From the IMG/VR virus record IMGVR_UViG_3300047462_000177: a stretch of DNA of 61,857 nucleotides; one strand, 5' to 3'. The notes under the pieces were generated by a model that saw only the letters and a program-made list of their open reading frames with translations, searched no databases and was not told where the DNA came from. How positions within the stretch are numbered: position 1 is the first letter of the stretch; every line of letters begins with the position of its first letter. This stretch comes from a virus. This document shows positions 1,813 through 61,857 of the stretch, piece by piece. The position numbers and the translations under genes were made by a program.

Positions 1813-4533
1813 CTATGTCGTATCTGCTTGATCGGGTTTGGGTGTGGGGAGCTCTGTGACGCGGTATGTTTGTTGGCCACTCTGTTCCCCAGCCATTCGG
1901 ACTCCGGCTGTGGACGCTATCAGACTGTAATGTGCCTTGAAATACCTGTCTAGGCGGCGAGCATTAGATAGGATAGGATTACTACGGAACTCACCCATCT
2001 CAACCCAAGCAACTATGTCTAGCATAGTGAAAAGATCCTGAGGACTGCCTTCTCGCCAATTAGTCGTGAACTCGATGATACCCTGAAGCACCCAATCGCT
2101 ATCCGTCGAGGCATTAAGCTGGATCTCCTTCACAGTCTTACGCACGAAGGATTTATCCATACCCACTACTCGAGCTGCAATACCTAAGGCTTGCTCTAGA
2201 TTGGCTAGGCGATGGATAGTATGGAAATTCTCATCCCAGCCACCTTCTTCGACAGGTTTGGCTGCCAACTTGAAGAACCTATGGAGGAATACCAATTGAT
2301 GGGCCATCCACATTTCTCGGCCACCAAACAATTCCATCTTCTTCCGCACCCAATCACTATCGGGGGCCTTGCCTAAGTTGCAAGTCTCGAATATGGTGGA
2401 TCTGGAGAAGAGGTCGGCATTCTGGAAGGGTTGTGTGACAGCTGTGAAACCGAACGTCACATCAACCGGGAATCGAATTAGATCGGCAGTAGTGTAGAGT
2501 TGTCGTACCTCAATCGTGGGATGCGGCTCTGTAGTGAGTCGACAGATCTCGTCTGACATCCTTTGCTTCAGGTCATTCTTGGTGAAGTGGACGTTATCAA
2601 TCACGTGTAGGCCGCCACTATTGGCAAGGGAAGCCTGCCAGTCCTTAATGTCATTAGGCAGATTACGCAGATGAGGACGACCTGTTAGGATATTTAGGCG
2701 CATCTCGTAGAGGCTAGACTTACCACTTCCAGGACCACCTATCATGATCTCCACAGGTAGTTGGATACCTTTCCAACGTTGGAGCCAAGGTGAGATGTAG
2801 TAAAGCAAGGTAGCTAACTCGCGCATACGATGCCCCTGAGGGCTTATCGGGATATCTAGTGAATCTACCTCATCAGGATTCTTATCAGGAAAGGCTGTCT
2901 GGAGGTCCTTCAAATTCCTGCCAATGTTAGTATCCTGGAGGATTTCCCACCACCAGGGTGCTAAAGGCCCTGGCTCCGCATTGATCTGCTCGAAAGCCTC
3001 TAAGACCGTATCTACGTCAAGGGGCTCGACATGATTCTGTTCGAAGAGCAAGCCTAGATCACCATTAGTGCAAAGCTTAATAGGCTCTTCTGTACTTGAT
3101 GAGACAGTGATGAAATTGCTGTCCCCTACTTGGATAGCTATACCATTTGGGTTAGTTGGATCTTCCTTCTCCGTTACTAATGCTCGTACGCGGCGAGGTG
3201 TCACATCCACGATGGGTTCTTCACCTGTAAACTGTGATGCCAACCATGTCAAGACTTTGATGTCACCAGCTCCTAGCCCAAATCTCTGGTACAGTAGGAC
3301 ACCAAAAGGAGTCTCATGCATGAACTGCCCACGACCATTGAGGATAGTAGCAGGCATTAACTTGTATGTCTCCCTGTTGTAGTAGTATGGCTGCCCTGAA
3401 TAAGTATCTCGGAATCGCATCCCATCAGAATCAAGCTCTGCCATGATAACATGGCCAATCTGCTGTGCTAGTTTTCGGTCTTGGAAGTTATTCAGTTGTG
3501 TCCCCAAGAACCCCTTTGAGTTAGGATGTCTAGGGAATTTAGTAGGATCATGGAAGATCTCATGCATCTCCCTGATTATCTGTGACGGCCCATGGATCAT
3601 CAAGTAGTCATCGAGGCCTGTCTTAGTATCCTCATCAGGATGCACTACAGCATCTGCAGGCCTATTGTGGATGTCTGGTAGGATCAACTGTCGGATGCGA
3701 GTTGCGGGCAAACCTAGGTATCGCAATTCATAGCCTAGCATAGTCAATGATCGTTGGATGTCTGCTTTCATTGTCCCGCCAATATCACTATCAAAGATTA
3801 GTACAGGCGTGATATTGAACTGGTTAATGACATCCATCATGTCTTGGAAGCCTTCAGCAAGTGTCATCATTTCAGGCAGTCTGGTATTGCTTCCAGGTAG
3901 CTTGGCTTTGATATCTTGCTTGTTGGAGGTAAGCTCTACTTCCTTTGGCAAGCTTATAGTCCGTGATTTCCAAGAGTCGACACCGCCAAGACCAACAGTA
4001 GGGATTCCCATCTTGGTAGCACAGGCAGCCTTCTTCTCTCCCTCGGTGATCACAAGCATGGCTTGTTGTGGCCACTTTTTCACCCAAGCAATCAGGGTGG
4101 CGTAGAACGCTGGAGGGAAATAGATATGGTTATTGGACTTAGTTGGCTGTCTGTACTTAGAGCCTGACACATTGCTGTTGAAGACCTTAACACGGTAGAA
4201 ATCAATTACAGCTCCTCTTATCGTGTAGTAGGGAATCTTATACCCATCAGCATTTAACGCACCAATAGACCTGCGCATATCAGCATTAAGGAACTGTACA
4301 TCTAGTTCCTCAGGTGTGAGACCACTCTTCGCTAAGTCCGCTATGACTCTTGGATCATATACCTGTTTTGGGTCCTTACCTGATTTTAGGTCAGTAAACA
4401 AGACAACGTTTCCTCCTAGGTCCTCCCCCGAGGGCCCAGAATTAACCGTATTAGGGTCCATTTTAGTTAGCCTCAGACTATAGACTCTTAGTTGCCTAGT
4501 TCCCCACAAAGCTAAGAGTCTGTCAACCCCCAA
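1813..4533 (-). CDS. bifunctional DNA primase / P-loop helicase (Toprim/DUF3854-like N-terminal half plus SF3/D5-like ATPase)
   Basis: ITEGEKKA..GLGGVDSW..IFDSD Toprim-like acidic motifs and a GGPGSGKS Walker A. The likely true start is the ATG at 4461 (MDPNTV) with GAGG upstream. Confidence 0.75.
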   Translation of the reverse strand: MGVDRLLALWGTRQLRVYSLRLTKMDPNTVNSGPSGEDLGGNVVLFTDLKSGKDPKQVYDPRVIADLAKSGLTPEELDVQFLNADMRRSIGALNADGYKIPYYTIRGAVIDFYRVKVFNSNVSGSKYRQPTKSNNHIYFPPAFYATLIAWVKKWPQQAMLVITEGEKKAACATKMGIPTVGLGGVDSWKSRTISLPKEVELTSNKQDIKAKLPGSNTRLPEMMTLAEGFQDMMDVINQFNITPVLIFDSDIGGTMKADIQRSLTMLGYELRYLGLPATRIRQLILPDIHNRPADAVVHPDEDTKTGLDDYLMIHGPSQIIREMHEIFHDPTKFPRHPNSKGFLGTQLNNFQDRKLAQQIGHVIMAELDSDGMRFRDTYSGQPYYYNRETYKLMPATILNGRGQFMHETPFGVLLYQRFGLGAGDIKVLTWLASQFTGEEPIVDVTPRRVRALVTEKEDPTNPNGIAIQVGDSNFITVSSSTEEPIKLCTNGDLGLLFEQNHVEPLDVDTVLEAFEQINAEPGPLAPWWWEILQDTNIGRNLKDLQTAFPDKNPDEVDSLDIPISPQGHRMRELATLLYYISPWLQRWKGIQLPVEIMIGGPGSGKSSLYEMRLNILTGRPHLRNLPNDIKDWQASLANSGGLHVIDNVHFTKNDLKQRMSDEICRLTTEPHPTIEVRQLYTTADLIRFPVDVTFGFTAVTQPFQNADLFSRSTIFETCNLGKAPDSDWVRKKMELFGGREMWMAHQLVFLHRFFKLAAKPVEEGGWDENFHTIHRLANLEQALGIAARVVGMDKSFVRKTVKEIQLNASTDSDWVLQGIIEFTTNWREGSPQDLFTMLDIVAWVEMGEFRSNPILSNARRLDRYFKAHYSLIASTAGVRMAGEQSGQQTYRVTELPTPKPDQADTT

Positions 4534-5431: not shown

Positions 5432-5827
<396 letters not shown>

Positions 5828-10316: not shown

Positions 10317-10853
10317 TTAGCCGTAGATACGCATCTGCGGCTCACACGAGCCTTCGTTGATCGCTATCTCCTCTGGCACCACATTCTGGCTTGTCGCCAT
10401 CTGCTGTACTGGCTGCATCTGCTTCTCTACAGAGTTGCGTGGACGCTTGACCTCCTGCGTGAGCACGTTGCGCACGTGCTGGTAGATGATGCCCAGATGA
10501 TTGGCGATCTGAGCGCGCCGAAAGCCGAGAGAGTTCATGTGACGAATCTTGGCGCTCTTCGTTGGCAGCGTATCGAGATAGGCCTGCAGCTCAGCACTGA
10601 CTGCCGACGCCTTTGGTGCGCTCGTTGTCTTGATTCCCTCGAGATTCGTGACTGCTGCCGCCTGCTGATCGCTTGTCGTGTCGATCTCGCCCCACCCTTC
10701 AGGTATCTTTGCGACGATGTCGCTGACGACGATGCCGTGCTCTTCTGCGTCCGCCATCATCTCGTCGACCAGCGCCTCCTGCTCGACCTCTTTCATGTCG
10801 ACTTTACGCAGATCAACGGTGAGGCCGTTGTCTTTGTGATTGTACTTACCCAC
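10317..10853 (-). CDS. hypothetical protein with a C-terminal HTH-like 'YQHVRNV' domain
   Basis: GTG start with AAGGAGA 7 nt upstream. The C-terminal SAKIRHMNSLGFRRAQIANHLGIIYQHVRNVL is paralogous to 15473..15667. Confidence 0.6.
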   Translation of the reverse strand: MGKYNHKDNGLTVDLRKVDMKEVEQEALVDEMMADAEEHGIVVSDIVAKIPEGWGEIDTTSDQQAAAVTNLEGIKTTSAPKASAVSAELQAYLDTLPTKSAKIRHMNSLGFRRAQIANHLGIIYQHVRNVLTQEVKRPRNSVEKQMQPVQQMATSQNVVPEEIAINEGSCEPQMRIYG

Positions 10854-11540: not shown

Positions 11541-12293
11541 TCAGTCAGCGCGCCCGGGCTTATCCTCTTTTGTTGGGCTTTGTGTGCCCTTTGGGCTTTG
11601 TGTGCCCTTTGGTTTATTTTCTATGCCTAGGATCTGTTCGTCGGTGAGGTCTGGCAAAGGGGCGAATGTGTCTGCGCTTTGCCTTTGCTGCTGGCGATAT
11701 GTGTTGATAAGGAGCAAATGGCTTGGAGACCATTTGCTCTCGTGACCAATGACCGTGCTAGGCTGATATATGGCGTTGTTCACTGTAGTGACTGGGATGT
11801 CTAAATCGTCGGCTATTTGGGAGGCTGGTGTTTTTTGTTTGCGACGACGTAGGATATCGTCAACCGCCTCTTTTTGGCGCTTGATTGGGATGTCCCAGTA
11901 AAGGTTGTCGATATGGCCGTTAGAGGGGTCATTGTCACGGTGCTTACAATACAGTTGGTTGGTTATGGCGTATTGGGTTTCGTCTTTGGGGCCGAACAGC
12001 ATGAGGATTGTACGGTCCCGCTGCATATTGTTTTGTCTGATGCCGTCTTTGTCTATGATGGGTATGACATAGTTCAATTTGCCTAATGGCGTTGTGCCTA
12101 AGAGCTCGTAGCCGCTTGGTAATGGGCGCATGTCCACGAACCAACCACCATCGCAAACAAGGTAGCAGCCCAACAGAGATGGGTCTGGGAGGTCTCTGTA
12201 GTTAAAGCCAAGACGCTTAAATGGCCAAGTGAGATGGGTCATAATCTCGCCGTTGTTGCTGCGGCGCTGTGAGTAGTCCCGTTTCTTTGTCAT
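11541..12293 (-). CDS. HNH-family homing-endonuclease-like protein with a C-terminal HTH
   Basis: CKHRDNDPSNGHIDNLYW is an HNH_3-type block, followed by TPASQIADDLDIPVTTVNNAIY. The C-terminal PKGTQSPKGTQSP is encoded by an 18-mer x2 repeat at 11575-11612. Confidence 0.6.
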   Translation of the reverse strand: MTKKRDYSQRRSNNGEIMTHLTWPFKRLGFNYRDLPDPSLLGCYLVCDGGWFVDMRPLPSGYELLGTTPLGKLNYVIPIIDKDGIRQNNMQRDRTILMLFGPKDETQYAITNQLYCKHRDNDPSNGHIDNLYWDIPIKRQKEAVDDILRRRKQKTPASQIADDLDIPVTTVNNAIYQPSTVIGHESKWSPSHLLLINTYRQQQRQSADTFAPLPDLTDEQILGIENKPKGTQSPKGTQSPTKEDKPGRAD

Positions 12294-12322
12294 GGTGTGT
12301 GGTGTGTGTGTGGTGTGTGTGC
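12291..12322. repeat. GT-rich microsatellite filling the whole 32-nt intergenic gap
   Basis: ggtgtgtggtgtgtgtgtggtgtgtgtgctgg. Confidence 0.85.
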
Positions 12323-12325
12323 TGG

Positions 12326-13504
12326 TCAGAGCATCTGCAGGTTGAAGTAATTGAAGGGTTTGTTAGGGATGTCGTTCCCGTTTTCGTCCCAAGGGATGGA
12401 GATACGTTCGTAGTAGTTGTCGCGAGGGCTTGGGTTGTCAATGTCTTGGAGCCTCTGTTTTTGGAGGAATTCATGGAAGGGCATTGTGCTTGTGTAGGCT
12501 TTGTACGCATTCTGGTAGAGCACTGTATCTGACTCGATCGTGATGTACAGCTCTAAGCGACGTCGGTGTGCTCTTTTCTGGTTTGGGTCTTGTTGTGCTT
12601 GATTGTCGTGCTGAGTTATTGGGAGAGCGCGATACGTGCTCATAAGCTGTTGGATCTTTGGATAGTTTTGCTGTAGATGGTCAAAAATGCGGTAGTAACC
12701 TAAGTGAGGTCTTGGCGAGATGCGGATGATGTCCATCATGATGCCAATGTTTACTTCGGAGTATGACATATTCGGGAATTCGTCGGAGCTTTCCAATTGG
12801 TTTGCACGTTGGTTGGTGTAGGGTTCGATCAATGAGCTCACTTTTGAGGGATCGTCGTAATTACCTTCTTGCCATGCCTCTGCAATGGATTTGTAGGGAG
12901 TCCTGTACTCTTCGCTGCTGTGAGGCTCGGTGTATAGACCACCTGGGATGATGTAGGTTTGGTTAAAGTAGTTGGTTAGATTGCCTGTTGTGGCGATGTA
13001 TATGATTTCCTTGCATATCTTACCAGGAATACCGAAGTGACGTGCGATTTGAGCTAACGGGACGCCATGTGTGGTGTGTGCCGTAGCAATCTCGAAGGCT
13101 GTATCGTGTTGGATACCCTGTAAAGGGTCGTTCCAGCTCAAATTTTCCAGGTTACAGAGTTTGAACCTGTCGCTTACCTTGTAGCTCACATGGCATTTTA
13201 CCATAGGTGGACCACGAAATGTGGTTAGGATGACACGCGCTAAGGGGACTTGTTTTGAGTCTATGGAAACTATCCGGTACCCACCGTGGTTTATTGTAGG
13301 TTTGACGCGTCGTGTCTGGTCGTCTCTGAATAGTTGGCTGTCTCGCAGGACCTCACCATCAGTTGAAGCCCAGTATGGCAAAGTGGTGTCAGGTATCTTG
13401 GCATACAGTAAGGGGTGTTTGGGATCTCGCTGCTTCTCCAGTTCTGCTCTGGTAGGGTAACCCGGTCCAACGGTGGGATCCGTATTGCTGTACATATAGG
13501 GCAT
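12326..13504 (-). CDS. NUMOD4/HNH-like homing-endonuclease-like protein
   Basis: YWASTDGEVLR..HGGYRIVSI (NUMOD4-like), CHVSYKVSDRFKLCNLENLSW (HNH_3-like) and VPLAQIARHFGIPGKICKEIIY (HTH). Confidence 0.55.
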   Translation of the reverse strand: MPYMYSNTDPTVGPGYPTRAELEKQRDPKHPLLYAKIPDTTLPYWASTDGEVLRDSQLFRDDQTRRVKPTINHGGYRIVSIDSKQVPLARVILTTFRGPPMVKCHVSYKVSDRFKLCNLENLSWNDPLQGIQHDTAFEIATAHTTHGVPLAQIARHFGIPGKICKEIIYIATTGNLTNYFNQTYIIPGGLYTEPHSSEEYRTPYKSIAEAWQEGNYDDPSKVSSLIEPYTNQRANQLESSDEFPNMSYSEVNIGIMMDIIRISPRPHLGYYRIFDHLQQNYPKIQQLMSTYRALPITQHDNQAQQDPNQKRAHRRRLELYITIESDTVLYQNAYKAYTSTMPFHEFLQKQRLQDIDNPSPRDNYYERISIPWDENGNDIPNKPFNYFNLQML

Positions 13505-13517
13505 TTGATTTAGGGCT

Positions 13518-13543
13518 CTGTTGCTGTTGCTGTTGCTGTTGCT
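13518..13543. repeat. tandem hexamer (ctgttg)x4 in the 5' leader of 12326..13504
   Basis: Read directly from the sequence. Confidence 0.9.
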
Positions 13544-13551
13544 ACAAGATG

Positions 13552-13580
13552 ATTATATAGGAGACTTTTGGGGCAATCAA
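13552..13580 (-). promoter_or_regulatory. sigma70-type promoter (TTGATT-N17-TATAAT)
   Basis: attata at 13552-13557 and aatcaa at 13575-13580, with a CATTTTGAC box upstream. Confidence 0.55.
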
Positions 13581-13798
13581 TAGTCAAAATGATAGTCGGG
13601 CCTAAAATTTTGTACATGATGAAGAAAAGAAATGTTTGTTTAGAACGGTTTGTGTGTTACTCTGCTTTGCGCTGCTATGCGCTGCTCTGCTCTGCTTTGC
13701 TATGCTTTGCTTTTAGTTTATACAAGTTTATGGATTGTTCTACTTTGTTCTACTTTGTTTGAGTAGAAAAAGGGTTACAAATTATGGTAAAACTGAGA

Positions 13799-14004
13799 CA
13801 ACAAGATGTTAAAATGAATAGCCTTTGCCTAAATTTGGCAATAATCAAAACTGTGATATCGCCCTCATTTTGGATGTAGTTCTTACCTCAATTTGGATGT
13901 AGGTTTTAAGTCCACATCCTCAATTTGGATTTAGTTCCTACCCTCAATTTTTTCGGCCAACAGTGCAGGGTAGGTAGTAGGATATAAATTTTAACATCTT
14001 GTTG
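13799..14004. repeat. perfect 17-bp inverted repeat (13799-13815 / 13988-14004) bracketing 3.5 iterons
   Basis: caacaagatgttaaaat pairs with attttaacatcttgttg. Iterons cctcaWtttggatKtag lie at 13863-13879, 13886-13902 and 13918-13934, with a partial copy at 13942-13950. The context is AT-rich. Confidence 0.85.
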
Positions 14005-14095
14005 AGCATGTTTGCTCAAAATCGATAACCCTTTTTTTTGACTACACATGTAATACAATGTAAAACAATGTGCTCACGGGCCTACACTTTGTATA

Positions 14096-14135
14096 CAAAC
14101 CGTTCCAAACCGTTCCAAACCGTTCCAAACAGTTC
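14096..14135. repeat. tandem 10-mer (caaaccgttc)x4
   Basis: Read directly. The last unit has one mismatch and abuts the first GGACTAGTCC. Confidence 0.9.
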
Positions 14136-14325
14136 GGACTAGTCCCCGACCGGCCCCTGTTCGGACTAGTCCAGACAGGTCCGAGCTGCGTTGGACCGAT
14201 TTAGTTTCACCGCAACCGGCCGCCCGCCAATAACAGTGTGGCAGGGCAGAGACCAGCCGGTTGGACCAGACGGACCAGACGGACCAGTCCAGACAGGGCC
14301 TTGGCCTTGGCCTTGGGACTAGTCC
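14136..14325. promoter_or_regulatory. GGACTAGTCC palindrome cluster I (3 perfect copies)
   Basis: Copies at 14136-14145, 14163-14172 and 14316-14325. Tandem arrays (ggaccagac)x3 at 14263-14289 and (ggcctt)x3 at 14297-14316 lie between them. Confidence 0.7.
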
Positions 14326-14411
14326 TAACATGGCACAGCCTATCAGACTCCTCTCATTGGACCAGTCGATCAGACTCTTTGGCATAATGGACCGGCCTAC
14401 CTCTTGCTCCA

Positions 14412-14474
14412 CAACAAAGGCGACAAAGTCAACAAAGTCAACAAAGGCGACAAAGTCAACAAAGTCAACAAAGT
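14412..14474. repeat. tandem 9-mer array x7 (caacaaagK / cgacaaagt) with 27-nt higher-order periodicity
   Basis: Read directly. An inverted partial copy cgcctttgttg lies at 14491-14501. Confidence 0.9.
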
Positions 14475-14728
14475 CAATTGCTGACCAAGTCGCCTTTGTT
14501 GTGCTCTGCCAGATGCATTGCAGTCTTACTCAACGAATCAGCTGCCCGACAGAGGAAGTATGGTAAATTGACCTCCGATGACACGAAGGTAGCCATTGCA
14601 CTGTAGTACCGTGACAGAACCGGATAGGCCCACACATCTGGCTCATTCGAAGTAACCTGATGTCTGTTCATAACTCCTGACCCCTGACCCCTGACCCCTG
14701 TTAAATGGTGCAGATCTCTCTTCTGCAT
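14474..14728 (-). CDS. questionable 84-aa ORF, possibly leaderless
   Basis: Its ATG at 14728 lies 6 nt after the -10 of promoter 14735-14764. The N-terminus is encoded by (ctgaccc)x3 at 14677-14700. No similarity was recognised. Confidence 0.3.
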   Translation of the reverse strand: MQKRDLHHLTGVRGQGSGVMNRHQVTSNEPDVWAYPVLSRYYSAMATFVSSEVNLPYFLCRAADSLSKTAMHLAEHNKGDLVSN

Positions 14729-14734
14729 ATCTAT

Positions 14735-14764
14735 ATTATATCATAGGACTATAGAGAAAATCAA
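14735..14764 (-). promoter_or_regulatory. sigma70-type promoter (TTGATT-N18-TATAAT) inside the coding-poor island
   Basis: attata at 14735-14740 and aatcaa at 14759-14764. Confidence 0.55.
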
Positions 14765-14807
14765 GATTCTTCTTGAGGTCAAATCATTAATAATTGTTAA
14801 TGTGAAC

Positions 14808-15026
14808 GGACTAGCCCAACGGACCGCTCCTCTCTCGGCTTCGCTCACCTACGACCGACCTCCCGCCAAAGGTGTTCAGGACCGACGGACTAGTCCTGCC
14901 TAGGCCAGACCTACTAGGCCAGACTGACTAGTCCGGACCTAATAGTTAGTACGGTCCGCCCGCAGGGACTAGTCCTGACAGGTCCGCGGCAATTGTCCTG
15001 CCTGGTCCCCGGTCCTGCCTGGTCCC
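14808..15026. promoter_or_regulatory. GGACTAGTCC palindrome cluster II (2 perfect and 2 one-mismatch copies) plus direct repeats
   Basis: Copies at 14808-14817 (1 mismatch), 14887-14896, 14925-14934 (1 mismatch) and 14966-14975. taggccagac x2 at 14901-14910 and 14915-14924. gtcctgcctggtccc x2 at 14995-15009 and 15012-15026. Confidence 0.7.
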
Positions 15027-15040
15027 TTAGGCGCATAAGA

Positions 15041-15062
15041 AAGGGCCCAGAAATGGACCCTT
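15041..15062 (-). terminator. intrinsic terminator candidate ending the HTH / small-TM transcript
   Basis: The minus strand reads AAGGGTCC-ATTTCT-GGGCCCTT (8 bp including one G.U), followed by TCTTAT. Confidence 0.5.
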
Positions 15063-15246
15063 CCTAGATGGACTAATCAATATACCCCGTGGTATAACCT
15101 ATTCTGACCTATTTTGTACCTGTGAGGTATTACCTCCCGACCTTCTACTTTAATGTGAACGTGAATGACCCGCGATAACGCACTGTTGATCATCCGTACG
15201 ACACATTCGTTGTCCTCATAGATGACCGCACCGTAAATAAGCTCAA

Positions 15247-15393
15247 TCACGACATCACCACAACCGCTATTGTTGCAACCAGAGCGATGACAACTGCGAG
15301 CACGACCGCCTGAGGCATCAGACCGACGTAATTGTCAATCGCGCTGACAAACGTATTGACCGGCGTTTCGAGTTGACCGTGTAAGCCATTCAT
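15247..15393 (-). CDS. 48-aa small membrane protein
   Basis: Hand translation gives MNGLHGQLETPVNTFVSAIDNYVGLMPQAVVLAVVIALVATIAVVVMS. GAGAG lies 7 nt upstream. It is below the track threshold. Confidence 0.4.
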   Translation of the reverse strand: MNGLHGQLETPVNTFVSAIDNYVGLMPQAVVLAVVIALVATIAVVVMS

Positions 15394-15420
15394 TGCTTTG
15401 CTCTCTGTCAGAGTTGATCT

Positions 15421-15470
15421 TTAGCTTAGCTTAGCTCAGCTTAGCTTAGCTGAGCTTAGCTTAGCTTAGC
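15421..15470. repeat. pentanucleotide array (ttagc)x10
   Basis: Lies directly after the stop of 15473..15667. Units 4 and 7 are tcagc and tgagc. Confidence 0.9.
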
Positions 15471-15472
15471 TG

Positions 15473-15667
15473 CTACGCCTTTTTCGTCGGCGTAATCTGC
15501 ACATTTCTCACGTGTTGATATCTGATATTCAGCTTCGCTGCGATTTGTGAGCGCGAGAGACCCTTCGATGTAAGCAGACGAATCTTTTCCGAAGTCGACT
15601 TACACGCATCGATCTCAGAATCGATCGTTGAAGCTACCGGCACATCATAGTTGAATTCGTTGATCAT
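15473..15667 (-). CDS. small HTH DNA-binding protein (first gene of the leftward arm)
   Basis: 64 aa. KIRLLTSKGLSRSQIAAKLNIRYQHVRNV is an HTH, with paralogous domains in 10317..10853 and 972..1505. Confidence 0.65.
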   Translation of the reverse strand: MINEFNYDVPVASTIDSEIDACKSTSEKIRLLTSKGLSRSQIAAKLNIRYQHVRNVQITPTKKA

Positions 15668-15689
15668 CTGTCTGACCCTTTTCGTTTCT

Positions 15690-15747
15690 CAAGAGCACTA
15701 TTGCTCTTGTATGAAGATATTATAGTTTGATCTTAAGATCTAAGCTA
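15690..15747 (-). promoter_or_regulatory. leftward promoter with a palindromic operator and a leader hairpin
   Basis: -10 TATAAT (complement at 15719-15724) and a weak -35 TAGCTT (15742-15747). The perfect 12-bp palindrome GATCTTAAGATC at 15729-15740 sits in the spacer. Leader hairpin caagagca-ctat-tgctcttg at 15690-15709. Confidence 0.5.
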
Positions 15748-16037
15748 CTAATCTTTTCGCTTAGCTCTTATTCGCTTTTCGCTTAGCTCTTCTTTTCTCC
15801 TTCTGTTCTCTTCAATAAAAATAATATAATGCGAATCAGAAAATTTCGCAACAGCGAAAAGTGAATAGCTGCTCCGCTATTATCGCTGATGTACGAATGT
15901 GTTAATTTCAACGTCAAATGGGTCCGAAAATGCAGCTCCCGGAAAGGACACCAAAAATTACCTATTCCCTAAAAAAAGCATTAGGCACATCAGCGGCAGC
16001 TTAGGTACACATTAACAAAGATTAATAATTGGACGTC

Positions 16038-16067
16038 TTGATTTTCCAAATATACATAGACTATAAT
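16038..16067 (+). promoter_or_regulatory. rightward sigma70-type promoter (TTGATT-N18-TATAAT)
   Basis: ttgatt at 16038-16043 and tataat at 16062-16067. It is the only family member on the plus strand. Confidence 0.6.
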
Positions 16068-16068
16068 T

Positions 16069-18105
16069 GTGGACAAAGGGACCCTAACAATTACCAATGT
16101 AGCTCCCATCTCTCAGCCCGTAATGCCTACAAGAGCCCAGGTGTTACGCGAAGCTGCCGAGCGCATTCCTAAGAACTCCTTGGGGCTGCCGGAGGGCTAC
16201 TATCGCTCAGATCTCCTTGACCCGCCAATGGTGGTAAAAGGGATCCTAGTCCCAACCGAGCTGTCAGCCCCCATCAACTACACCAGCCAGTCGAGCCAGT
16301 CGAGCCAGTCGAGCCAGTCGAGCCCACAAACAGCAAGCGCTGTCGCCGGCCCTGCTAGCAACAACTCAGGCTCACAAAAAGAGTGCGCGACGCTCGATCT
16401 ACCTGCCACCGAGCCCCCGTCAAATGCAGTGTGCTCAGGCACCACTGGCACCACTGGCACCACCACCACCACCAGCGAGGCATCCTATGTCGAGAGGCAG
16501 TCGGGGAGCCCGAACGCCGAAGGATCTCCGGTCCAGTCCGAGCTCGACGGCATCGGGCGAGGGAACCCAATCCAGATCAGGACGGGGCAGCCGAGCTCTG
16601 AAGGTAGTCAGGGGCAGCAGCAACCATCACACGGGCGGTCTGAAGCATCAGACAACCAGCACTCATGGCCATCACAAGTCGACAGCCGAGCTGGTCAAAC
16701 CGAGAGCCGGACAGGTTCACAAGCCCAAGGCCCCAACCCAGACGTAGGGGACCCTACATCTGCTCAGACACTGATCAGCGAGGATTACAGGCTTCCGGCA
16801 ATCGTATTCAATGAGCGTGTGCTACGCAATGCATATGTACCGTTGAACTACGATGAGGGATACCCTGTCCTACCTGATGGCAAGCCCTACTGGCAACAGT
16901 TGGACTTTGAGCCTCTGGATGCCTTCGTGGCATTCCAGGCTTATGTCGAGATGGGGTCCTACGGCTCCCGACAGCTCTTTCTCCTGCAGGACAAACAGTC
17001 CATGCAGCAGCGCATCCTTGTTGCGCGCAGCAGGATGAACCAGGAAGCCTCAAAGCTAGAGTCCAGAGGCGGCTACTACTACCCGGAGCCCAACGGCCCA
17101 GCAAGTGGCTATCCTAGCTCACACCAGAATAACACCCGTAACCGGCCGCCTGCTCTCTCCCAGGAAGAGCAGGACCGCCGAGATGAGGAAGATCTCCGTG
17201 AAGCAGAACGGGCGAAACAGTCTGCCTTGGATGGCAGTGGCTTCGTCCCTAACGTTACAGGTGGTGATGCACTAGAGCTCTCCGACCAGAAGAGGTCTAA
17301 GCTGTACGGGATGCTCCAAGCGGGAGCTGACCATGACACCTTGATTGAGTGGTACTACCTGTATCACTGGTCAACGCGTGCCTTAGCTCACGATCTCTTC
17401 TACGTGGATAGTATCCGCCGTGGGCGCGAGGCAATGGCCTTGCAGCTGGAGAACGGCCATCTGCAAGACAGCACGCAGATGTATCGCAGGCTCCAGGAAA
17501 TCTTCGACCCTGACAACCCGAAGTACCATGACACCAACGGTGAGAGCCGTTTCTGGCAGAAACTAGCAGGTAGCCCGAAGACAGCTACCGAGTTCTTCAA
17601 GACACTGATCCAGATGCAGCGCCTGAGCGTAGGCCTGTCCCAAGACAGTCCAAGTGTTGCTCTAGGCCGCTTTGCAGACCAGTCCGACGCCGAGCCATCC
17701 AGGGGTAGAGGCCGCCCGAAATCCAACGGCTCGGGCACCCACAGTAACAGTAACAGTAACAGTCTGCCCTCTAGCGCGCGGGGTCAGGCACATGACAACT
17801 TCAGCAGAGGAGCTATCAACCACGGTAACCAGTTGCGCCCTGACGAGCATGGCCGGATCAACCCGGAAGCCCATGCCCAGATAGGCGCCCAGACCAACAC
17901 GGCTAATGCGAATGTGAGTAGGCCACCTATGCGGGGGCTAGGTGGCTTCCAACCTGAGACGGCTACTACTAACACAGCATCGGGGGGTGCTGGGTCTCAG
18001 GTTGGACCGACTGGCGATGAGCGTGCAAGACGAATTGCTCAACTCCTAGATCTTGCACGTGCTCGACAAGCGGGCAGCACCCCACAGAGTCGGGGCTCTA
18101 CATAG
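16069..18105 (+). CDS. large low-complexity protein in the small-terminase position; function unknown
   Basis: It ends 1 nt before TerL. The GTG at 16069 lies 2 nt after the -10, so the ATG at 16123 is the more likely start. In-frame repeats (SQS)x4, (TTG)x3 and (SN)x3. GC-rich. Confidence 0.6.
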   Translation: MDKGTLTITNVAPISQPVMPTRAQVLREAAERIPKNSLGLPEGYYRSDLLDPPMVVKGILVPTELSAPINYTSQSSQSSQSSQSSPQTASAVAGPASNNSGSQKECATLDLPATEPPSNAVCSGTTGTTGTTTTTSEASYVERQSGSPNAEGSPVQSELDGIGRGNPIQIRTGQPSSEGSQGQQQPSHGRSEASDNQHSWPSQVDSRAGQTESRTGSQAQGPNPDVGDPTSAQTLISEDYRLPAIVFNERVLRNAYVPLNYDEGYPVLPDGKPYWQQLDFEPLDAFVAFQAYVEMGSYGSRQLFLLQDKQSMQQRILVARSRMNQEASKLESRGGYYYPEPNGPASGYPSSHQNNTRNRPPALSQEEQDRRDEEDLREAERAKQSALDGSGFVPNVTGGDALELSDQKRSKLYGMLQAGADHDTLIEWYYLYHWSTRALAHDLFYVDSIRRGREAMALQLENGHLQDSTQMYRRLQEIFDPDNPKYHDTNGESRFWQKLAGSPKTATEFFKTLIQMQRLSVGLSQDSPSVALGRFADQSDAEPSRGRGRPKSNGSGTHSNSNSNSLPSSARGQAHDNFSRGAINHGNQLRPDEHGRINPEAHAQIGAQTNTANANVSRPPMRGLGGFQPETATTNTASGGAGSQVGPTGDERARRIAQLLDLARARQAGSTPQSRGST

Positions 18106-20112
18106 TTGCAACTCTTCGGAGGGCCATACGGAACACACACAGACGGCACTAACAGTGAGGTAAGCGTAGAAGAGCTTATCCCGTTCATGACAGAGTCTGA
18201 ACTGGATGAGCTTGAGTATCTCCTGAGTGACATCTTCATCCCACCGTGGATGCCTCTGCCTGGCCCACAGACGATGGCTATTGAGAGCCAGGCCGACGAG
18301 ACCTTCTATGGCGGTGCTGCAGGTGGCGGGAAAACCGATCTCCTGATCGGTACCGCGATGATGAACCACCATGACAGCATTATCTTCCGCCGTGAGTTCG
18401 CCCAGCTCAAAGGGATCCGCAAACGTTGTGCGGAGATCTACAACGGCTTTGCCAAGTACAACGGCAGTGACTATGTCTGGCGCTTTCATCAGCCGCCTTA
18501 CCTAGGCAAATCTGTCGAGCTCGGTGCTTGCCAATTTGATGGGGATGAACAAAAGTACCAAGGTCGCCCACATGACCTTAAAGCCTTTGATGAGGTCACC
18601 CATTTCACCGAAGCACAATTTAGGTTCCTCAAGGGCTGGAACCGCACCACTCGCCGTGATCCCAACACAGGCCTCCCTCAGCGGACTAGGGTAATTGCTG
18701 CTGGCAACCCCCCTGTCAATGCAGAGGGTCAGTGGGTCATCAGGTATTGGGCCCCCTGGCTAGACAGTGAGCACCAGAATCCTGCCGAACCAGGTGAGCT
18801 CCGCTGGTTTGTAACTGATGAAGTAGGCAACGACCGAGAGGTCCCAGACAATACACCTGTCTGGTTGACCCTTGACGGCGTCCCTCAGTGGGTCCAACCT
18901 ACATCCCGTACATTTATCCGTGCTAAGGTTCAGGACAACACGTTCCTGATCCAGAGTGGTTACTTGTCGGTCTTGCAGGCATTGCCGGAACCGCTCCGCT
19001 CAAGGATGCTCGGAGGCAATTTTGGAGTCCTCCAGGAGGATGATGAGTGGCAAGTGATCCCAAGTGGTTGGATCACCGAAGCACAGGCTCGTTGGGCTCC
19101 TAGCTACGAGGAGTACCTGCACAAGCTCCATGCGCGTCATCGTGCTGCTGGTACGCAGATTGCTGACCATGAGAAAGCACTTGACGACACTACAATTGAT
19201 GCCGTCAATCTGTTCAGCATTGAACAATCGCGCGCGAGCCAGGCTTCGCCTGGGCTACGTCGAACCCCCGTTATCGGGAATGCACGTGGTGATAGCGACG
19301 AGCTGCGCTCAGCTAATGAGCGTGATGCATTGCTCAATAATATACCCCAAAAGGTAGGTGTTGACCTGAGTGAGTTCCTGACACAGAGGCAGCAAAAAGT
19401 CAACAGCAATGCTGCCGAAATGGTGGAGGGACGGTCAATTGATCTACCTGGTGCTCGGGATGTGGGTGTCGATGTTGCTCGGGGCGGTCGTGATAAGACT
19501 GTCGTCAGCGAAAGGATCGGATCATGGTTCGCACCCCTCAAAGCCGTCCCCGGAATCCGCACACCTACCGGACAAGCAGTCATCAACATCCTCAAAGAAC
19601 TGGGGTATGAGGAATGGCGTTGTAAGATTGATGTTGTTGGGGCGGGGTCGTCACCGGTAGATGCTGGCCGTCTTGAGGGCATGAACGTCGTTGCCATGAA
19701 CGGTAGCGAGTCCTCACATGCGACTGACCGCTCAGGTACCATAGGTTTTGCCAACAAACGTGCAGAATGGTGGTGGTTATTCCGCGAAGCACTCGATCCT
19801 GACCTCGGTTTGAACATCGCTTTGCCTCCAGATGCTGAGTTGGCGGCTGATTTAGCTGCACCAAGGTGGTCTTTGACTGTTCGAGGCATCATTCTTGAGG
19901 ATAAAAAGCTCATCAAGAAGCGCATTATGCGCTCACCTGACCGTGCTGAGGCCTTGATCAATGCGTTTGCACAGCCAAATATCATCGGTCATGGCTTCAT
20001 TTCGTACTACCGCGAGCAGGTTAAGCTGGCAGCAGAGCAAGGAACACTAAAATTCAGCCAAAATGCCAAGGCAAAATCACAGGTTAGCGCCTTCATGCAG
20101 GCAAATCAGTGA
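18106..20112 (+). CDS. terL: terminase large subunit
   Basis: Walker A GGAAGGGKT, Walker B-like KAFDEVTHF and the nuclease-domain block VGVDVARGGRDKTVV. Start is the TTG at 18106 or the ATG at 18187. Confidence 0.85.
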   Translation: MQLFGGPYGTHTDGTNSEVSVEELIPFMTESELDELEYLLSDIFIPPWMPLPGPQTMAIESQADETFYGGAAGGGKTDLLIGTAMMNHHDSIIFRREFAQLKGIRKRCAEIYNGFAKYNGSDYVWRFHQPPYLGKSVELGACQFDGDEQKYQGRPHDLKAFDEVTHFTEAQFRFLKGWNRTTRRDPNTGLPQRTRVIAAGNPPVNAEGQWVIRYWAPWLDSEHQNPAEPGELRWFVTDEVGNDREVPDNTPVWLTLDGVPQWVQPTSRTFIRAKVQDNTFLIQSGYLSVLQALPEPLRSRMLGGNFGVLQEDDEWQVIPSGWITEAQARWAPSYEEYLHKLHARHRAAGTQIADHEKALDDTTIDAVNLFSIEQSRASQASPGLRRTPVIGNARGDSDELRSANERDALLNNIPQKVGVDLSEFLTQRQQKVNSNAAEMVEGRSIDLPGARDVGVDVARGGRDKTVVSERIGSWFAPLKAVPGIRTPTGQAVINILKELGYEEWRCKIDVVGAGSSPVDAGRLEGMNVVAMNGSESSHATDRSGTIGFANKRAEWWWLFREALDPDLGLNIALPPDAELAADLAAPRWSLTVRGIILEDKKLIKKRIMRSPDRAEALINAFAQPNIIGHGFISYYREQVKLAAEQGTLKFSQNAKAKSQVSAFMQANQ

Positions 20113-48622: not shown

Positions 48623-48896
48623 GCCCTTGTGCCGCCTTCTCTTCTTTACGCATTTCAGGTTTGGTCATGGTCTGGGTCTGGGTCTCATGCTTGTCGGCTA
48701 TGTCGAGCATCTCCAGATGCTTCTTGTCGACGATGGAGAACCTGGCATTGATGGCGAGGTCGGAATTATCCATTGCAATCTGGTGGTGATGCAATGTGAC
48801 AACGCCTGCCTCTAGAAGGTCGGCTACATGCCTAAGCCAACCTTGGACATTGAAGACAGGCAGTGCTCTGAGAGCACTCCTCTGGTTTGGAGTCAT
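48603..48896 (-). CDS. hypothetical protein embedded in the deazaguanine cluster
   Basis: 97-aa ORF that overlaps the dpdA-like start by 20 nt. Confidence 0.45.
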   Translation of the reverse strand: MTPNQRSALRALPVFNVQGWLRHVADLLEAGVVTLHHHQIAMDNSDLAINARFSIVDKKHLEMLDIADKHETQTQTMTKPEMRKEEKAAQGHVHTDS

Positions 48897-48920
48897 AGAG
48901 TCTTGCCTTTATTGTGTCTT

Positions 48921-49658: not shown

Positions 49659-49663
49659 ATCTG

Positions 49664-50952: not shown

Positions 50953-50979
50953 CGTATCAACCTTTCTCCTCGAATTTGA

Positions 50980-51837: not shown

Positions 51838-51881
51838 TACCTTCTCCTTTTCCTTCTCTGGGTGTGAAGCCTGAAGTCGAA

Positions 51882-51931
51882 CCTAACCTAACCTAACCTA
51901 ACCTAACCTAACCTAAGCTAACCTAACCTAG
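51882..51931. repeat. pentanucleotide array (cctaa)x10, which reads (TTAGG)n on the coding strand
   Basis: Lies in the 222-nt gap between the DUF669 SSB stop and the queC start. Unit 8 is gctaa and unit 10 is cctag. Confidence 0.9.
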
Positions 51932-61828: not shown

Positions 61829-61857
61829 TGTTGCTGTTGTTGCTGTTGTTGCTGTTG
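61829..61857. repeat. 29-nt terminal overlap identical to bases 1-29 (circular closure or assembly redundancy)
   Basis: tgttgctgttgttgctgttgttgctgttg is present at both ends. It is itself a 9-mer x3 tandem repeat. Confidence 0.8.

What the first reader, a model, noticed from the sequence alone, without database searches (positions are those of the whole stretch)
14136..14975. Seven copies of the 10-bp palindrome GGACTAGTCC in two clusters flanking a promoter
Seen: perfect copies lie at 14136, 14163, 14316, 14887 and 14966. One-mismatch copies lie at 14808 and 14925. I found none elsewhere in the window by eye. A given 10-mer is expected about 0.06 times in 61.9 kb under uniform composition. 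Three copies share the extension GGACTAGTCCTR and two share GTTCGGACTAGTCC. The two clusters bracket promoter 14735-14764 and the questionable ORF 14474..14728.

Inference: this looks like an operator array for a dimeric DNA-binding protein, with looping between clusters. The phage HTH or RHH proteins are candidates, as is a partition or packaging recognition array.
Basis: partly seen in the sequence, partly recalled or inferred. Interest (0 to 1): 0.7.

Follow-up and report, generated by a model that had tools for sequence, protein, structure and literature searches.

The report
Conserved palindromic boxes after phage terminators
A 10-bp palindrome repeated about a dozen times in one non-coding stretch of this phage genome is a real, conserved DNA box that sits just behind transcription terminators next to a tiny regulator gene, so it probably marks the boundaries of the phage's early transcription units, but its binding protein and function are untested.

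Summary
GGACTAGTCC occurs exactly five times, at the stated coordinates. There are none elsewhere in 61.9 kb.

The underlying unit is GGAC-NN-GTCC, with a free centre. About 12 boxes plus many GGAC half-sites fill two GC-rich islands in a 1.5-kb stretch with no conserved ORF.

The box is conserved. In 57 non-redundant related viral contigs it is about 60 times denser downstream of a small GerE/sigma-region-4-type HTH gene (here 15473-15667) than upstream. The first box typically starts 12-28 nt past an intrinsic-terminator hairpin. The cultured Brevundimonas phages StAshley and MaInes show the same layout.

My best reading (confidence about 0.4) is that the boxes bind dimers of that HTH protein and act as boundary or roadblock elements between early transcription units. 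The idea of two clusters looping around promoter 14735-14764 is not a conserved feature.

An iteron origin is the main rival. Unrelated phages use the same 10-mer as iterons inside initiator genes. Packaging and partition sites have little support. Nothing here has been tested experimentally.

The parts
14136..14145 (.). Box, exact GGACTAGTCC. Directly follows the (CAAACCGTTC)x4 tandem repeat.
14163..14182 (.). Exact box GGACTAGTCC plus an abutting degenerate box AGACAGGTCC, giving a 10-bp tandem pair.
14263..14300 (.).
14316..14325 (.). Box, exact GGACTAGTCC.
14359..14368 (.). Degenerate box GGACCAGTCG.
14808..14817 (.). One-mismatch box GGACTAGCCC. It abuts the 33-nt element upstream of promoter 14764.
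14887..14896 (.). Box, exact GGACTAGTCC.
14925..14934 (.). One-mismatch box TGACTAGTCC. This is the commonest variant in relatives when read on this strand.
14966..14985 (.). Exact box GGACTAGTCC plus an abutting degenerate box TGACAGGTCC.
14995..15026 (-). Two copies of GTCCTGCCTGGTCCC, 17 nt apart. Read on the minus strand they form a run of GGAC half-sites that starts 15 nt after the terminator stem.
   Evidence: (D12)
15039..15062 (-). Intrinsic-terminator-like hairpin ending the HTH operon: GAAGGGUCCAUUUCUGGGCCCUUUC followed by UUAUG. The 61-nt stretch that was folded (15025-15085) gives -22.4 kcal/mol, z = -3.2.
15077..15393 (-). Two small ORFs (48 aa with a predicted membrane helix; 57 aa) downstream of the HTH gene. 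Both are conserved in L033.
15473..15667 (-). Gene for a 64-aa stand-alone four-helix GerE/sigma-region-4-type HTH protein with recognition helix IRYQHVRNV. It is the candidate box-binding protein.
10317..10853 (-). 178-aa paralogue carrying the same HTH (IIYQHVRNVL). It has no boxes downstream.
14735..14807 (-). Leftward sigma-70-type promoter (TTGATT-18-TATAAT) plus a 33-nt upstream element. The module is an inverted copy of 16005-16067.
   Evidence: I1, I2
16005..16067 (+). Rightward promoter of the structural/terminase operon. It has the same module as 14735-14807 but no boxes.
13505..15076 (.). A 1.57-kb stretch without any conserved ORF. It contains the two GC-rich box islands (14100-14400 and 14800-15060, 60-65% GC), AT-rich flanks and many short tandem repeats.

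Best explanation
The copies of GGACTAGTCC are instances of a conserved 10-bp dyad box, GGAC-NN-GTCC, in which the centre is free. On the early-transcribed strand the box is often GGACNNGTCA.

A clade of phages carries this box in the non-coding gaps of the early region. The clade includes this one, dozens of uncultivated relatives, and the Brevundimonas siphoviruses StAshley and MaInes. All that could be checked encode 7-deazaguanine synthesis genes. The box is always in cis with a gene for a 60-70-aa stand-alone GerE/sigma-region-4-type HTH protein.

I propose that dimers of this early HTH protein (here 15473-15667) bind the boxes, and that the boxes act as boundary elements of early transcription units. 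The first box lies about one and a half helical turns beyond an intrinsic-terminator hairpin. A bound protein there would stall RNA polymerase at or just past the U-tract. That would stop read-through into the next unit and shield the next promoter. Stacked boxes may also allow cooperative binding.

In this window the element is unusually amplified, with about 12 boxes in two GC-rich islands, and the DNA between and around them has lost recognisable genes.

Shown: the clustering, conservation, dyad structure, linkage to the HTH gene, position after terminators, and the HTH fold class.

Inferred: that the HTH is the binder, and that the effect is a roadblock or insulation.
For: (1) Clustering in the window is far beyond chance.

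(2) The box is conserved in syntenic gaps of relatives with 50-65% TerL identity. L012 has GACTAGTC x3. L027/L028 have GGACTAGTCC, TGACTAGTCC and three TGACNNGTCC. L029 has GGACTAGTCC. L025 has GACCGGTC x5.

(3) In 57 non-redundant IMG/VR loci recovered with the HTH alone, GGACNNGTCC occurs 31 times in 122 kb downstream of the HTH gene and once in 222 kb upstream. GACNNGTC without the flanking G/C is not enriched.

(4) In an alignment of inter-operon spacers from 8 phages, G.C..GTC is invariant while the centre varies (CG, CT, AT, TG, TA).

(5) 28 of 123 boxes start 12-28 nt after a terminator-like stem, with a mode of 14-17 nt. Random placement gives a mean of 1.1 and a maximum of 8 in 1000 trials. 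In this window the run of GGAC half-sites starts 15 nt after the terminator of the HTH operon.

(6) Cultured phages show the same layout. StAshley's only GGACNNGTCC in 69.9 kb lies 15 nt after the terminator stem of its HTH operon. A GGACCTGTCA lies 15 nt after another hairpin inside that operon. MaInes is the same, with compensatory changes in the hairpin.

(7) The HTH model (pLDDT 81) is a four-helix bundle. Its best, though weak, structural neighbours are sigma region 4 and LuxR/NarL-type domains, including DosR-C. A JGI source names the L012 homologue a NarL/FixJ family regulator. The LuxR-family regulator DosR binds the palindrome TTSGGGACTWWAGTCCCSAA, which has the same GGGAC half-site (PMC2275270).

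(8) The centre of the box co-varies with a recognition-helix residue. YQW proteins are followed by CG centres in 10 of 12 boxes, and YQH proteins in 12 of 70 (Fisher p = 1.4e-5, not corrected for phylogeny).
Against: - No binding or transcription data exist.
- Many HTH-bearing loci have no box: 39 of the 82 distinct HTH genes with 500 nt or more of downstream sequence. These include L033, the closest relative of this window's HTH, which has only scattered GGACC/GGTCC half-sites.
- The recognition helix is almost invariant while boxes come and go.
- The W/CG covariation may reflect a single clade.
- The half-site centres are only 6 bp apart. That is tighter than classical LuxR-type boxes (DosR: GGAC-N4-GTCC).
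- A second repeated element, AGCTAAGC, lies next to the HTH promoter in the window, L033 and L012. It could be the true HTH operator.
- The left cluster (14136-14368) is not preceded by a convincing terminator.
- GC-rich DNA just downstream of a U-tract could influence termination without any protein.
- All Foldseek matches have E > 0.1.
Confidence: 0.4

Rival explanations
1. Replication origin. The boxes are iterons bound by an origin-recognition protein. That protein could be the small HTH or the C-terminal domain of the P4-alpha-like primase-helicase 1813-4533. The two islands would act like P4 ori/crr, or like the paired iteron sets of SaPI origins, next to the AT-rich stretch 13550-14100.
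For: - The same 10-mer forms arrays inside replication-initiator genes of unrelated phages. L006 and L009 carry them in Phage_rep_O genes (E about 1e-25). L001 carries them in an HTH_36 protein gene next to ORFs that, on my reading of the translations, are DnaC-like and DnaB-like. These are lambda-type ori iterons.
- An AT-rich region (30-40% GC) abuts the left island, and local GC skew changes sign near 13.9-14.05 kb.
- The 906-aa protein has a Toprim-like DUF3854 domain and a Walker A motif (GGPGSGKS), with a further C-terminal region of about 300 aa (the architecture is my own reading).
- Strong promoters nearby could give transcriptional activation.
- Box and HTH gene are inherited together, as rep genes and iterons are.
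Against: - No Rep_O, RepA or DnaA-type initiator was detected in any ORF scanned.
- There are no DnaA boxes in the region.
- Box spacing is irregular: 27, 10, 108, 10, 25, 43, then 79, 38, 41, 10.
- In relatives the boxes are spread singly or in small groups over several inter-operon gaps 1 kb apart, each tied to a terminator. They do not form one compact array.
- StAshley has only two or three boxes.
- The skew change coincides with the switch in gene orientation.
Confidence: 0.17
2. Classical operator array. The two clusters would be operators through which a dimeric repressor or activator controls promoter 14764->14735, and perhaps its inverted twin at 16038, by looping.
For: - The right cluster lies 44-220 bp upstream of the -35 of a strong promoter. 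The nearest one-mismatch box abuts that promoter's upstream element.
- The sites are palindromic and an HTH gene lies close by.
- LuxR/GerE-type proteins usually act at promoters.
Against: - No box overlaps the -35/-10 of any promoter, here or in relatives.
- Distances from box to the next promoter are not conserved. They are about -100 to -250 here and in L047.
- The twin promoter at 16038 has no boxes.
- The StAshley and MaInes boxes lie between convergent genes.
- The transcript from 14764 has no conserved ORF.
- Distance to the preceding terminator is the conserved variable.
Confidence: 0.12
3. Packaging signal. The clusters would be a pac or cos recognition array for the terminase, comparable to the two hexamer clusters of P1 pac or to SPP1 pacL/pacR. 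They lie upstream of the large conserved protein (16069-18105) and TerL (18106-20112).
For: - The region lies 1.1-1.9 kb upstream of the terminase operon. The 678-aa protein directly precedes TerL in the window, L012, L023, L025 and L032 and is conserved in all TerL relatives examined. It has a conserved C-terminal tail and could be a small-terminase equivalent.
- HNH endonuclease genes lie on the other side.
- 41 of 63 related contigs end within 4 kb downstream of the HTH gene.
Against: - The contig ends fall in poly-T or tandem repeats at heterogeneous positions, so they are assembly breaks rather than a defined terminus.
- Boxes are dispersed over several gaps in relatives and are tied to terminators.
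- An oppositely oriented operon separates them from the terminase genes.
- The HNH genes are not conserved in relatives.
- The 678-aa protein has no detectable terminase or DNA-binding domain.
Confidence: 0.06
4. The boxes are not bound by the HTH. They might be sites for a host protein of the probably alphaproteobacterial host. Or they might be protein-free features: GC-rich DNA downstream that aids termination, hot spots for cassette shuffling, or a side-effect of the restricted set of GC-rich words in a genome depleted in GGNCC, CCGG and GCGC.
For: - Terminator stems themselves are often built from GGACC/GGTCC words.
- GGNCC occurs at 0.54 of expectation genome-wide, yet 21 of the 139 copies lie in 14100-15060.
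- L032 keeps a GC-rich island after the terminator without the box.
- The number of HTH cassettes varies from 1 to 3 between relatives, which is consistent with recombination at repeated spacers.
Against: - Precise dyad symmetry with invariant GAC/GTC, a free centre, and an added G/C at the outer positions is what sequence-specific dimer binding predicts. Base composition does not predict it.
- The exact 10-mer recurs five times here.
- Linkage to the HTH gene holds down to 51% identity over the aligned part of the protein, in cultured phages.
Confidence: 0.2

Closest known systems
LuxR/NarL/GerE-type regulators and their palindromic boxes, in particular the DosR box TTSGGGACTWWAGTCCCSAA of Mycobacterium tuberculosis and the stand-alone 74-aa GerE of Bacillus subtilis
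   Same: - The HTH is a four-helix domain with an H-x-x-N-[VI] recognition-helix signature.
- It is a stand-alone mini-regulator, as GerE is (from my own knowledge).
- The DNA site is a dyad with GGGAC/GTCCC half-sites, as for DosR.
   Different: - Half-sites are 2 bp apart here and 4 bp apart in the DosR box.
- Sequence and fold similarity to the family is weak. No Pfam GerE hit was found, and all Foldseek E-values exceed 0.1.
- The boxes lie after terminators, not at -40 to -60 of promoters.
- Binding is untested.
Lambda-type origin iterons inside or next to the initiator gene (lambda O/ori), and P4 ori/crr bound by the alpha primase-helicase
   Same: - Short dyad repeats occur in arrays.
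- The identical 10-mer is used as an iteron in the Rep_O genes of L006 and L009.
- There are two separated clusters and a primase-helicase with spare C-terminal domains.
   Different: - No O-type initiator is present.
- Spacing is irregular.
- Boxes in relatives are dispersed and coupled to terminators.
- The primase-helicase gene is 10 kb away.
Roadblock-assisted transcription termination. Examples from my own knowledge: Reb1/TTF-I sites downstream of a T-rich release element in RNA polymerase I terminators, and bacterial repressor roadblocks such as LacI or CodY
   Same: The geometry matches. A sequence-specific protein site lies about 10-20 bp downstream of the point where the polymerase should stop, just beyond a T-rich tract.
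   Different: Here a complete intrinsic terminator hairpin precedes the box. The comparison is an analogy only. No homology, binding or termination effect has been shown.
P1 pac site (two clusters of the hexamer TGATCA/G) and SPP1 pacL/pacR (from my own knowledge)
   Same: Two clusters of a short palindromic repeat lie near the terminase genes.
   Different: - The clusters are not within or adjacent to a recognised small-terminase gene.
- The sites are scattered in relatives.
- No evidence of a terminus was found.
REP/BIME extragenic palindromes of enterobacteria (from my own knowledge)
   Same: Repeated palindromic elements are placed just after the 3' ends of transcription units.
   Different: REPs are imperfect hairpin-forming palindromes of 30-40 nt and are mobilised by RAYT transposases. 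Here the element is a 10-bp box without a loop, and no RAYT was found.

Membership tests
Phage repressor/Cro-type operator array | Sites overlap or abut the -35/-10 of the regulated promoter(s). | tested here: not met
   The nearest box (14808-14817) is 44 bp upstream of the -35 of P14764, and the others are 120-220 bp upstream. P16038 and P13580 have none. The same holds in L047.
Phage repressor/Cro-type operator array | A cognate DNA-binding protein gene lies in cis with the sites. | tested here: met
   An HTH gene lies 0.5-1.3 kb from the boxes. The linkage is conserved in 57 loci and two cultured phages.
Iteron-type replication origin (lambda ori, P4 ori/crr, plasmid Rep-iteron) | An initiator protein (Rep_O, RepA or P4-alpha type) is encoded in the genome, usually in cis. 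| tested here: inconclusive
   No Rep_O or Rep_3 was found in about 60 ORFs scanned. A Toprim plus Walker A primase-helicase exists at 1813-4533, but its origin binding cannot be tested.
Iteron-type replication origin (lambda ori, P4 ori/crr, plasmid Rep-iteron) | Three or more iterons are regularly phased in one compact array beside an AT-rich unwinding element. | tested here: not met
   An AT-rich flank is present. However, spacing is irregular, and in relatives the boxes are split between several terminator-proximal gaps.
pac/cos terminase recognition site | A genome terminus or pac cleavage maps at or next to the repeats, and a small terminase binds them. | not testable with these tools
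   No reads or virion-end data are available. Contig ends near the region fall in low-complexity repeats at varied positions. The protein upstream of TerL has no recognisable domain.
Partition centromere (parS / ParR-type repeats) | ParA-type ATPase and ParB/ParR centromere-binding genes are present. | tested here: not met
   No such domain was found in any ORF scanned with Pfam, PHROGs or NCBIfam. No integrase or lysogeny module was seen either.
LuxR/GerE-type HTH regulator with a palindromic box | A four-helix GerE-type HTH fold. | tested here: inconclusive
   The AF2 model has four helices and pLDDT 81. The top Foldseek neighbours are sigma-4 and LuxR/NarL domains, but with E of 0.4-1 and TM about 0.5. 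There was no Pfam GerE hit. NCBIfam gave only weak sigma and Cbp1 HTH hits.
LuxR/GerE-type HTH regulator with a palindromic box | A dimer binds an inverted repeat whose half-sites are about one helical turn apart. | not testable with these tools
   The box is a perfect dyad, but the GGAC and GTCC centres are 6 bp apart (8-10 bp if the outer G's are the contacts). The DosR box has 4 bp between half-sites. No binding data exist.
Known RNA families, tRNA, or a coding gene | A match to an Rfam model, a tRNA, or a conserved ORF. | tested here: not met
   There are no Rfam hits at gathering thresholds and no tRNAs in the window. The ORFs overlapping the clusters have no homologues.

The most novel reading that the evidence does not exclude
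The boxes together with the mini-HTH would form a previously undescribed, protein-assisted terminator or insulator module. A GerE-like early protein would bind a dyad box placed about 15 nt beyond each intrinsic terminator hairpin and so seal off successive early transcription units. The unit of promoter, HTH or small genes, terminator and box would be a duplicable cassette in a widespread clade of phages that carry 7-deazaguanine synthesis genes. This would be a bacterial-virus counterpart of the Reb1/TTF-I roadblock terminators.
Probability: 0.25. Interest if true: 0.7.

Novelty: new variant of a known kind. Interest (0 to 1): 0.55.

Why it matters
If the boxes are bound by the mini-HTH at terminators, they would define a compact and portable way for phages to insulate tandem early operons. 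Such a terminator-plus-roadblock part could also be useful to engineers.

It would also assign a function to a large family of uncharacterised 60-70-aa phage HTH proteins. That family turned up in at least 63 IMG/VR contigs and in cultured Brevundimonas phages.

If the boxes instead mark the origin, they would locate the replication start of a phage group that probably has 7-deazaguanine-modified DNA and for which nothing is known.

Either way there is a tractable system. StAshley and MaInes grow on Brevundimonas pondensis LVF1 and have only two or three boxes each, so mutating them should be straightforward.

Tried and rejected
- **Nucleotide similarity.** blastn of 13500-16100 against 50,697 phage records found no match.
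- **RNA genes.** There were no Rfam hits at gathering thresholds and no tRNAs, so the region holds no known RNA gene.
- **Literature.** A search for the 10-mer returned only SpeI cloning primers. The paper on the Brevundimonas phages has nothing on termini or regulation.
- **Small ORFs.** The ORFs overlapping the clusters (14474-14728, 14074-14412, 14261-14566, 13568-13762, 13906-14058) have no homologue in about 100 related loci, so I treat them as non-coding.
- **DnaA boxes.** None lie in the region, and there is no genome-wide excess.
- **Partition, lysogeny and Rep_O proteins.** None were found.
- **Genome terminus.** 41 of 63 related contigs end just downstream of the HTH gene, including eight contigs of 50-70 kb. 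However, the ends fall in poly-T or tandem repeats at unrelated positions, so they are assembly breaks.
- **Box as a -35 element.** I considered the box as a -35-like element for a sigma-4-like appropriator. No -10 lies at a fixed distance, and the StAshley boxes have none.
- **Other known sites (from my own knowledge).** I considered the TrpR-type GNACTAGTNC site, C-protein boxes (GACT-N3-AGTC) and CcrM or CtrA sites. The conserved part is only GGAC/GTCC, the spacings differ, and the box contains no GANTC.
- **Solved structures.** Sequence searches with the HTH profile, the 906-aa protein and the 678-aa protein found nothing informative.
- **Wider scans.** Scans of metagenome and genome collections with TerL found almost no further relatives.
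- **Covariation caveat.** The H/W versus TA/CG covariation is suggestive, but it may reflect a single clade, so I do not count it as independent evidence.
Full report
**Observation.** The 10-mer GGACTAGTCC occurs exactly five times in the 61,857-bp window, at 14136, 14163, 14316, 14887 and 14966. Dinucleotide-preserving shuffles give 0.02 copies on average. Allowing one mismatch gives eight matches, all inside 14136-14975.

The underlying unit is broader than the exact 10-mer. GACNNGTCC occurs ten times in the window, nine of them here. Degenerate boxes lie directly abutting perfect ones: GGACTAGTCC-AGACAGGTCC at 14163, GGACCAGTCC-AGACAGGGCC at 14281, and GGACTAGTCC-TGACAGGTCC at 14966. The half-site GGAC/GTCC is the most enriched 4-mer in the region, with 31 copies against 5.5 expected. 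The boxes fill two GC-rich islands (60-65% GC) flanked by DNA of 30-40% GC.

**Setting.** The window looks like a complete phage genome whose assembly broke in a tandem repeat, because (TGTTGCTGT)n lies at both ends.

- Genes from 42.8 kb, through the ends, to 13.5 kb run leftward. They include a PolA fused to a UDG-like domain, an SNF2 helicase, a PD-(D/E)XK nuclease, a ligase and a Toprim/Walker-A primase-helicase. They also include FolE, QueE, QueD and QueC, the 7-deazaguanine pathway.
- Genes from 16.07 to 42.8 kb run rightward. They start with a conserved 678-aa protein, then TerL and the portal.
- Between the two arms lies 13505-16068. This stretch contains only a three-gene leftward operon: a 64-aa HTH at 15473-15667 and two small ORFs. 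The operon ends in a terminator-like hairpin at 15039-15062; the 61-nt stretch that was folded gives -22.4 kcal/mol, z = -3.2.
- Next comes 1.57 kb with no conserved ORF.
- The leftward promoter 14764->14735 is real as a consensus match. With its 33-nt upstream element it is an inverted copy of the rightward promoter module at 16005-16067.

On the leftward-transcribed strand the order is: HTH operon, terminator, right box island, promoter 14764, a highly structured repeat (-47 kcal/mol), left box island, AT-rich DNA, promoter 13580, HNH gene.

**Relatives.** No nucleotide-level relative exists among sequenced phages. TerL-based searches recovered relatives at 50-65% identity: L012, L023-L032. 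All share the architecture: a large gap with one to three copies of the small HTH gene, diverging from the large protein and TerL.

The box is present in the syntenic gap in several of them:
- L012 has GACTAGTC three times.
- L027/L028 have GGACTAGTCC, TGACTAGTCC and three TGACNNGTCC.
- L029 has GGACTAGTCC.
- L025 has five GACCGGTC.
- L030 and L032 have divergent recognition helices (FQHVYNT and YQFVRNV) and lack the box.

A search with the HTH alone found 63 IMG/VR loci. In 57 non-redundant ones, GGACNNGTCC occurs 31 times in 122 kb downstream of the HTH gene and once in 222 kb upstream. GACNNGTC without the outer G/C shows no enrichment. On the early strand there is a modest orientation bias: 39 boxes are intact only on the 5' side (GGACNNGTC followed by A, G or T, of which 24 are A) against 19 in the mirror form, p = 0.012. 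In an alignment of eight diverged spacers, G.C..GTC is invariant while the centre varies.

**Position.** The most informative regularity is not the distance to promoters, which varies. It is the distance to the preceding intrinsic-terminator hairpin. Of 44 terminator-like hairpins with a box within 300 nt, 28 have it 12-28 nt after the stem, with a mode of 14-17 nt. Random placement of the 123 boxes gives 1.1 such cases on average and at most 8 in 1000 trials. Some loci are close relatives, so these counts are not fully independent. The hairpin sequences differ widely, however.

In the window, the array of GGAC half-sites begins 15 nt after the terminator stem of the HTH operon.

The closest cultured phages are the Brevundimonas siphoviruses StAshley and MaInes. 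Their PolA is 37% identical to the window's, and their HTH is 51% identical over the aligned two-thirds of the protein. StAshley also encodes QueC, QueD, QueE and FolE. They show the same design. In StAshley's 69.9-kb genome the only GGACNNGTCC lies 15 nt after the terminator stem of the HTH operon, between convergent genes. A GGACCTGTCA lies 15 nt after another hairpin between the HTH gene and the next ORF. MaInes is the same, with compensatory changes in that hairpin.

**Candidate binder.** The 64-aa protein and its 178-aa paralogue (10317-10853) share the motif SAKIR-L...IAK-L-IRYQHVRNVL. An AlphaFold model built on 28 homologues has pLDDT 81 and four helices. Its nearest solved folds are sigma region 4 and LuxR/NarL-type domains, including the DosR C-terminal domain. 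These matches have E of 0.4-1 and are therefore weak. Pfam does not recognise the protein. NCBIfam gives only weak sigma and Cbp1-HTH hits.

LuxR-family proteins bind palindromes as dimers. DosR binds TTSGGGACTWWAGTCCCSAA (PMC2275270). That site has the same GGGAC half-site, but with 4 bp rather than 2 bp between the halves.

The box centre correlates with one recognition-helix residue. YQW proteins are followed by CG centres in 10 of 12 boxes, and YQH proteins in 12 of 70, p = 1.4e-5. This may be a single phylogenetic event.

Against the link, about half of the HTH genes with enough downstream sequence have no box. These include L033, the nearest relative of the window's HTH. A second repeat, AGCTAAGC, flanks the HTH promoter in the window, L033 and L012.

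**Rivals.**

- *Origin of replication.* A collection-wide scan for two nearby copies of the 10-mer found 11 viral contigs. In L006 and L009 the arrays lie inside Phage_rep_O genes. In L001 they lie inside an HTH_36 initiator-like gene next to ORFs that I read as DnaC-like and DnaB-like. These are lambda-type iterons. This shows that the sequence can serve as an iteron, and this phage has a P4-alpha-like primase-helicase. However, there is no O-type initiator and no regular phasing. The boxes of relatives are scattered over several gaps, each tied to a terminator.
- *Packaging.* Contig ends cluster downstream of the HTH gene in 41 of 63 loci. They fall in poly-T or tandem repeats at unrelated positions, so they are assembly breaks.
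- *Partition.* No ParA/ParB was found, nor any integrase.
- *Classical operator with looping.* No box overlaps a core promoter. The twin promoter at 16038 has no boxes.
- *Host factor or protein-free role.* This cannot be excluded. Terminator stems are themselves rich in GGACC/GGTCC. GGNCC is depleted genome-wide (139 against 258 expected) but concentrated here, with 21 copies.

**Verdict.** The motif is a conserved, dyad-symmetric cis-element that is almost certainly protein-bound.

My best mechanistic reading (confidence about 0.4) is that the boxes bind the GerE-like mini-HTH and function as terminator-proximal boundary or roadblock elements of early transcription units. In this window the element is unusually amplified. 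An iteron origin is the main alternative (about 0.17).

A dimeric-protein array and the two HTH candidates are plausible. Promoter bracketing with looping, partition and packaging are not supported.

The element appears undescribed. I rate it a new variant of a known kind (a regulatory protein-binding array) and of moderate interest. It is directly testable in the cultured Brevundimonas phages.

Noticed in passing
window 47825-51837 (- strand): A 7-deazaguanine (preQ0-type) gene cluster: FolE 48921-49658, radical-SAM QueE 49664-50431, QueD/PTPS 50428-50952 and QueC 50980-51837. The adjacent 265-aa ORF 47825-48622 gives only a very weak DpdA hit, E = 0.048. The phage DNA is probably modified at guanines. 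StAshley carries the same genes.
   Followed up: partly
window 44877-47546 (- strand): A DNA polymerase A with an N-terminal uracil-DNA-glycosylase-superfamily domain and a 3'-5' exonuclease domain in a single 889-aa protein. The closest cultured homologues are in the Brevundimonas phages, at 37% identity.
   Followed up: partly
window, many sites, e.g. 15421-15471 (TTAGC)x10, 14412-14477 (CAACAAAGT)x7, 13518-13543 (CTGTTG)x4, 51880-51930 (AACCT)x10, 5449-5488 (GTTCTG)x6.7, and 1-29 with 61820-61857 (TGTTGCTGT)n: The genome has unusually many perfect short tandem repeats with 5-10-nt units, mostly in intergenic leaders between a promoter and a start codon. Several leaders lack a Shine-Dalgarno sequence. 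One example is the CAGCAA-repeat leader of the gene starting at 13504. Both window ends lie in the same repeat, so the assembly probably broke there. Relatives show the same habit.
   Followed up: no
window 14735-14807 and 16005-16067: The leftward promoter and the rightward structural-operon promoter are inverted copies of one 73-nt module, 72-82% complementary. The module includes an upstream element with a near-palindrome TTAAYAATTRTTAA. Similar elements lie upstream of promoters in L025 and L030 (TAACAATTGTTA). This may be a second regulatory site shared by co-regulated promoters.
   Followed up: partly
window 15753-15794; L033 3880-3935; L012 6288-6395 and 6777-6804: Repeats of AGCTAAGC/GCTTAGC flank the promoter of the small HTH gene in the window and in two relatives. 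They are an alternative candidate operator for that protein.
   Followed up: no
window 14400-14510 (- strand): The (CAACAAAGT)n array pairs with an inverted partial copy to give a very stable hairpin in the transcript expected from promoter 14764: -47.1 kcal/mol, z = -6.1 (I3/I4, 97). No U-tract follows it and no Rfam family matches. Its function is unknown.
   Followed up: partly
window 11541-13504 (- strand) and 57513-58121 (- strand): There are three HNH-type endonuclease genes: 250 aa, 392 aa and 202 aa (PHROG hits). The two beside the non-coding region have no counterpart in any related locus fetched. L032 has a NUMOD4/HNH_3 gene at a different spot. They look like mobile homing endonucleases.
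   Followed up: partly
window 16069-18105 (+): A 678-aa protein upstream of TerL (directly adjacent in five of the eight relatives examined; small lysis-like genes intervene in L027, L029 and L030) is conserved in all of them. It has long low-complexity inserts (SQS, TGT and NS repeats) and a conserved C-terminal DDRARRIA.LLD.ARARQAG. It has no domain hit in any library. By alignment with L012 its start corresponds to an ATT codon at 16090. It may be a small-terminase equivalent.
   Followed up: partly
L033-L095 (IMG/VR contigs): 41 of 63 related contigs, including eight of 50-70 kb, end within 4 kb downstream of the HTH gene. Only about 6 end within 4 kb upstream. The ends lie in poly-T or tandem repeats. 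This repeat-rich early region systematically breaks metagenome assemblies.
   Followed up: yes
window, genome-wide: GC-rich 4-bp palindromes are under-represented: CCGG 110 against 258 expected, GCGC 155 against 258, GGCC 166 against 258, and GGNCC 139 against 258. GATC is over-represented, at 351 against 241. This may reflect restriction avoidance. The box islands hold 15% of all GGNCC sites.
   Followed up: no
L006 13584-13697, L009 7239-7287, L001 4541-4641: Unrelated phages carry arrays of the identical 10-mer inside replication-initiator genes, where it is read as Gly-Thr-Ser-Pro/Gly-Leu-Val repeats. This is an example of the same palindrome being used as a lambda-type ori iteron.
   Followed up: yes
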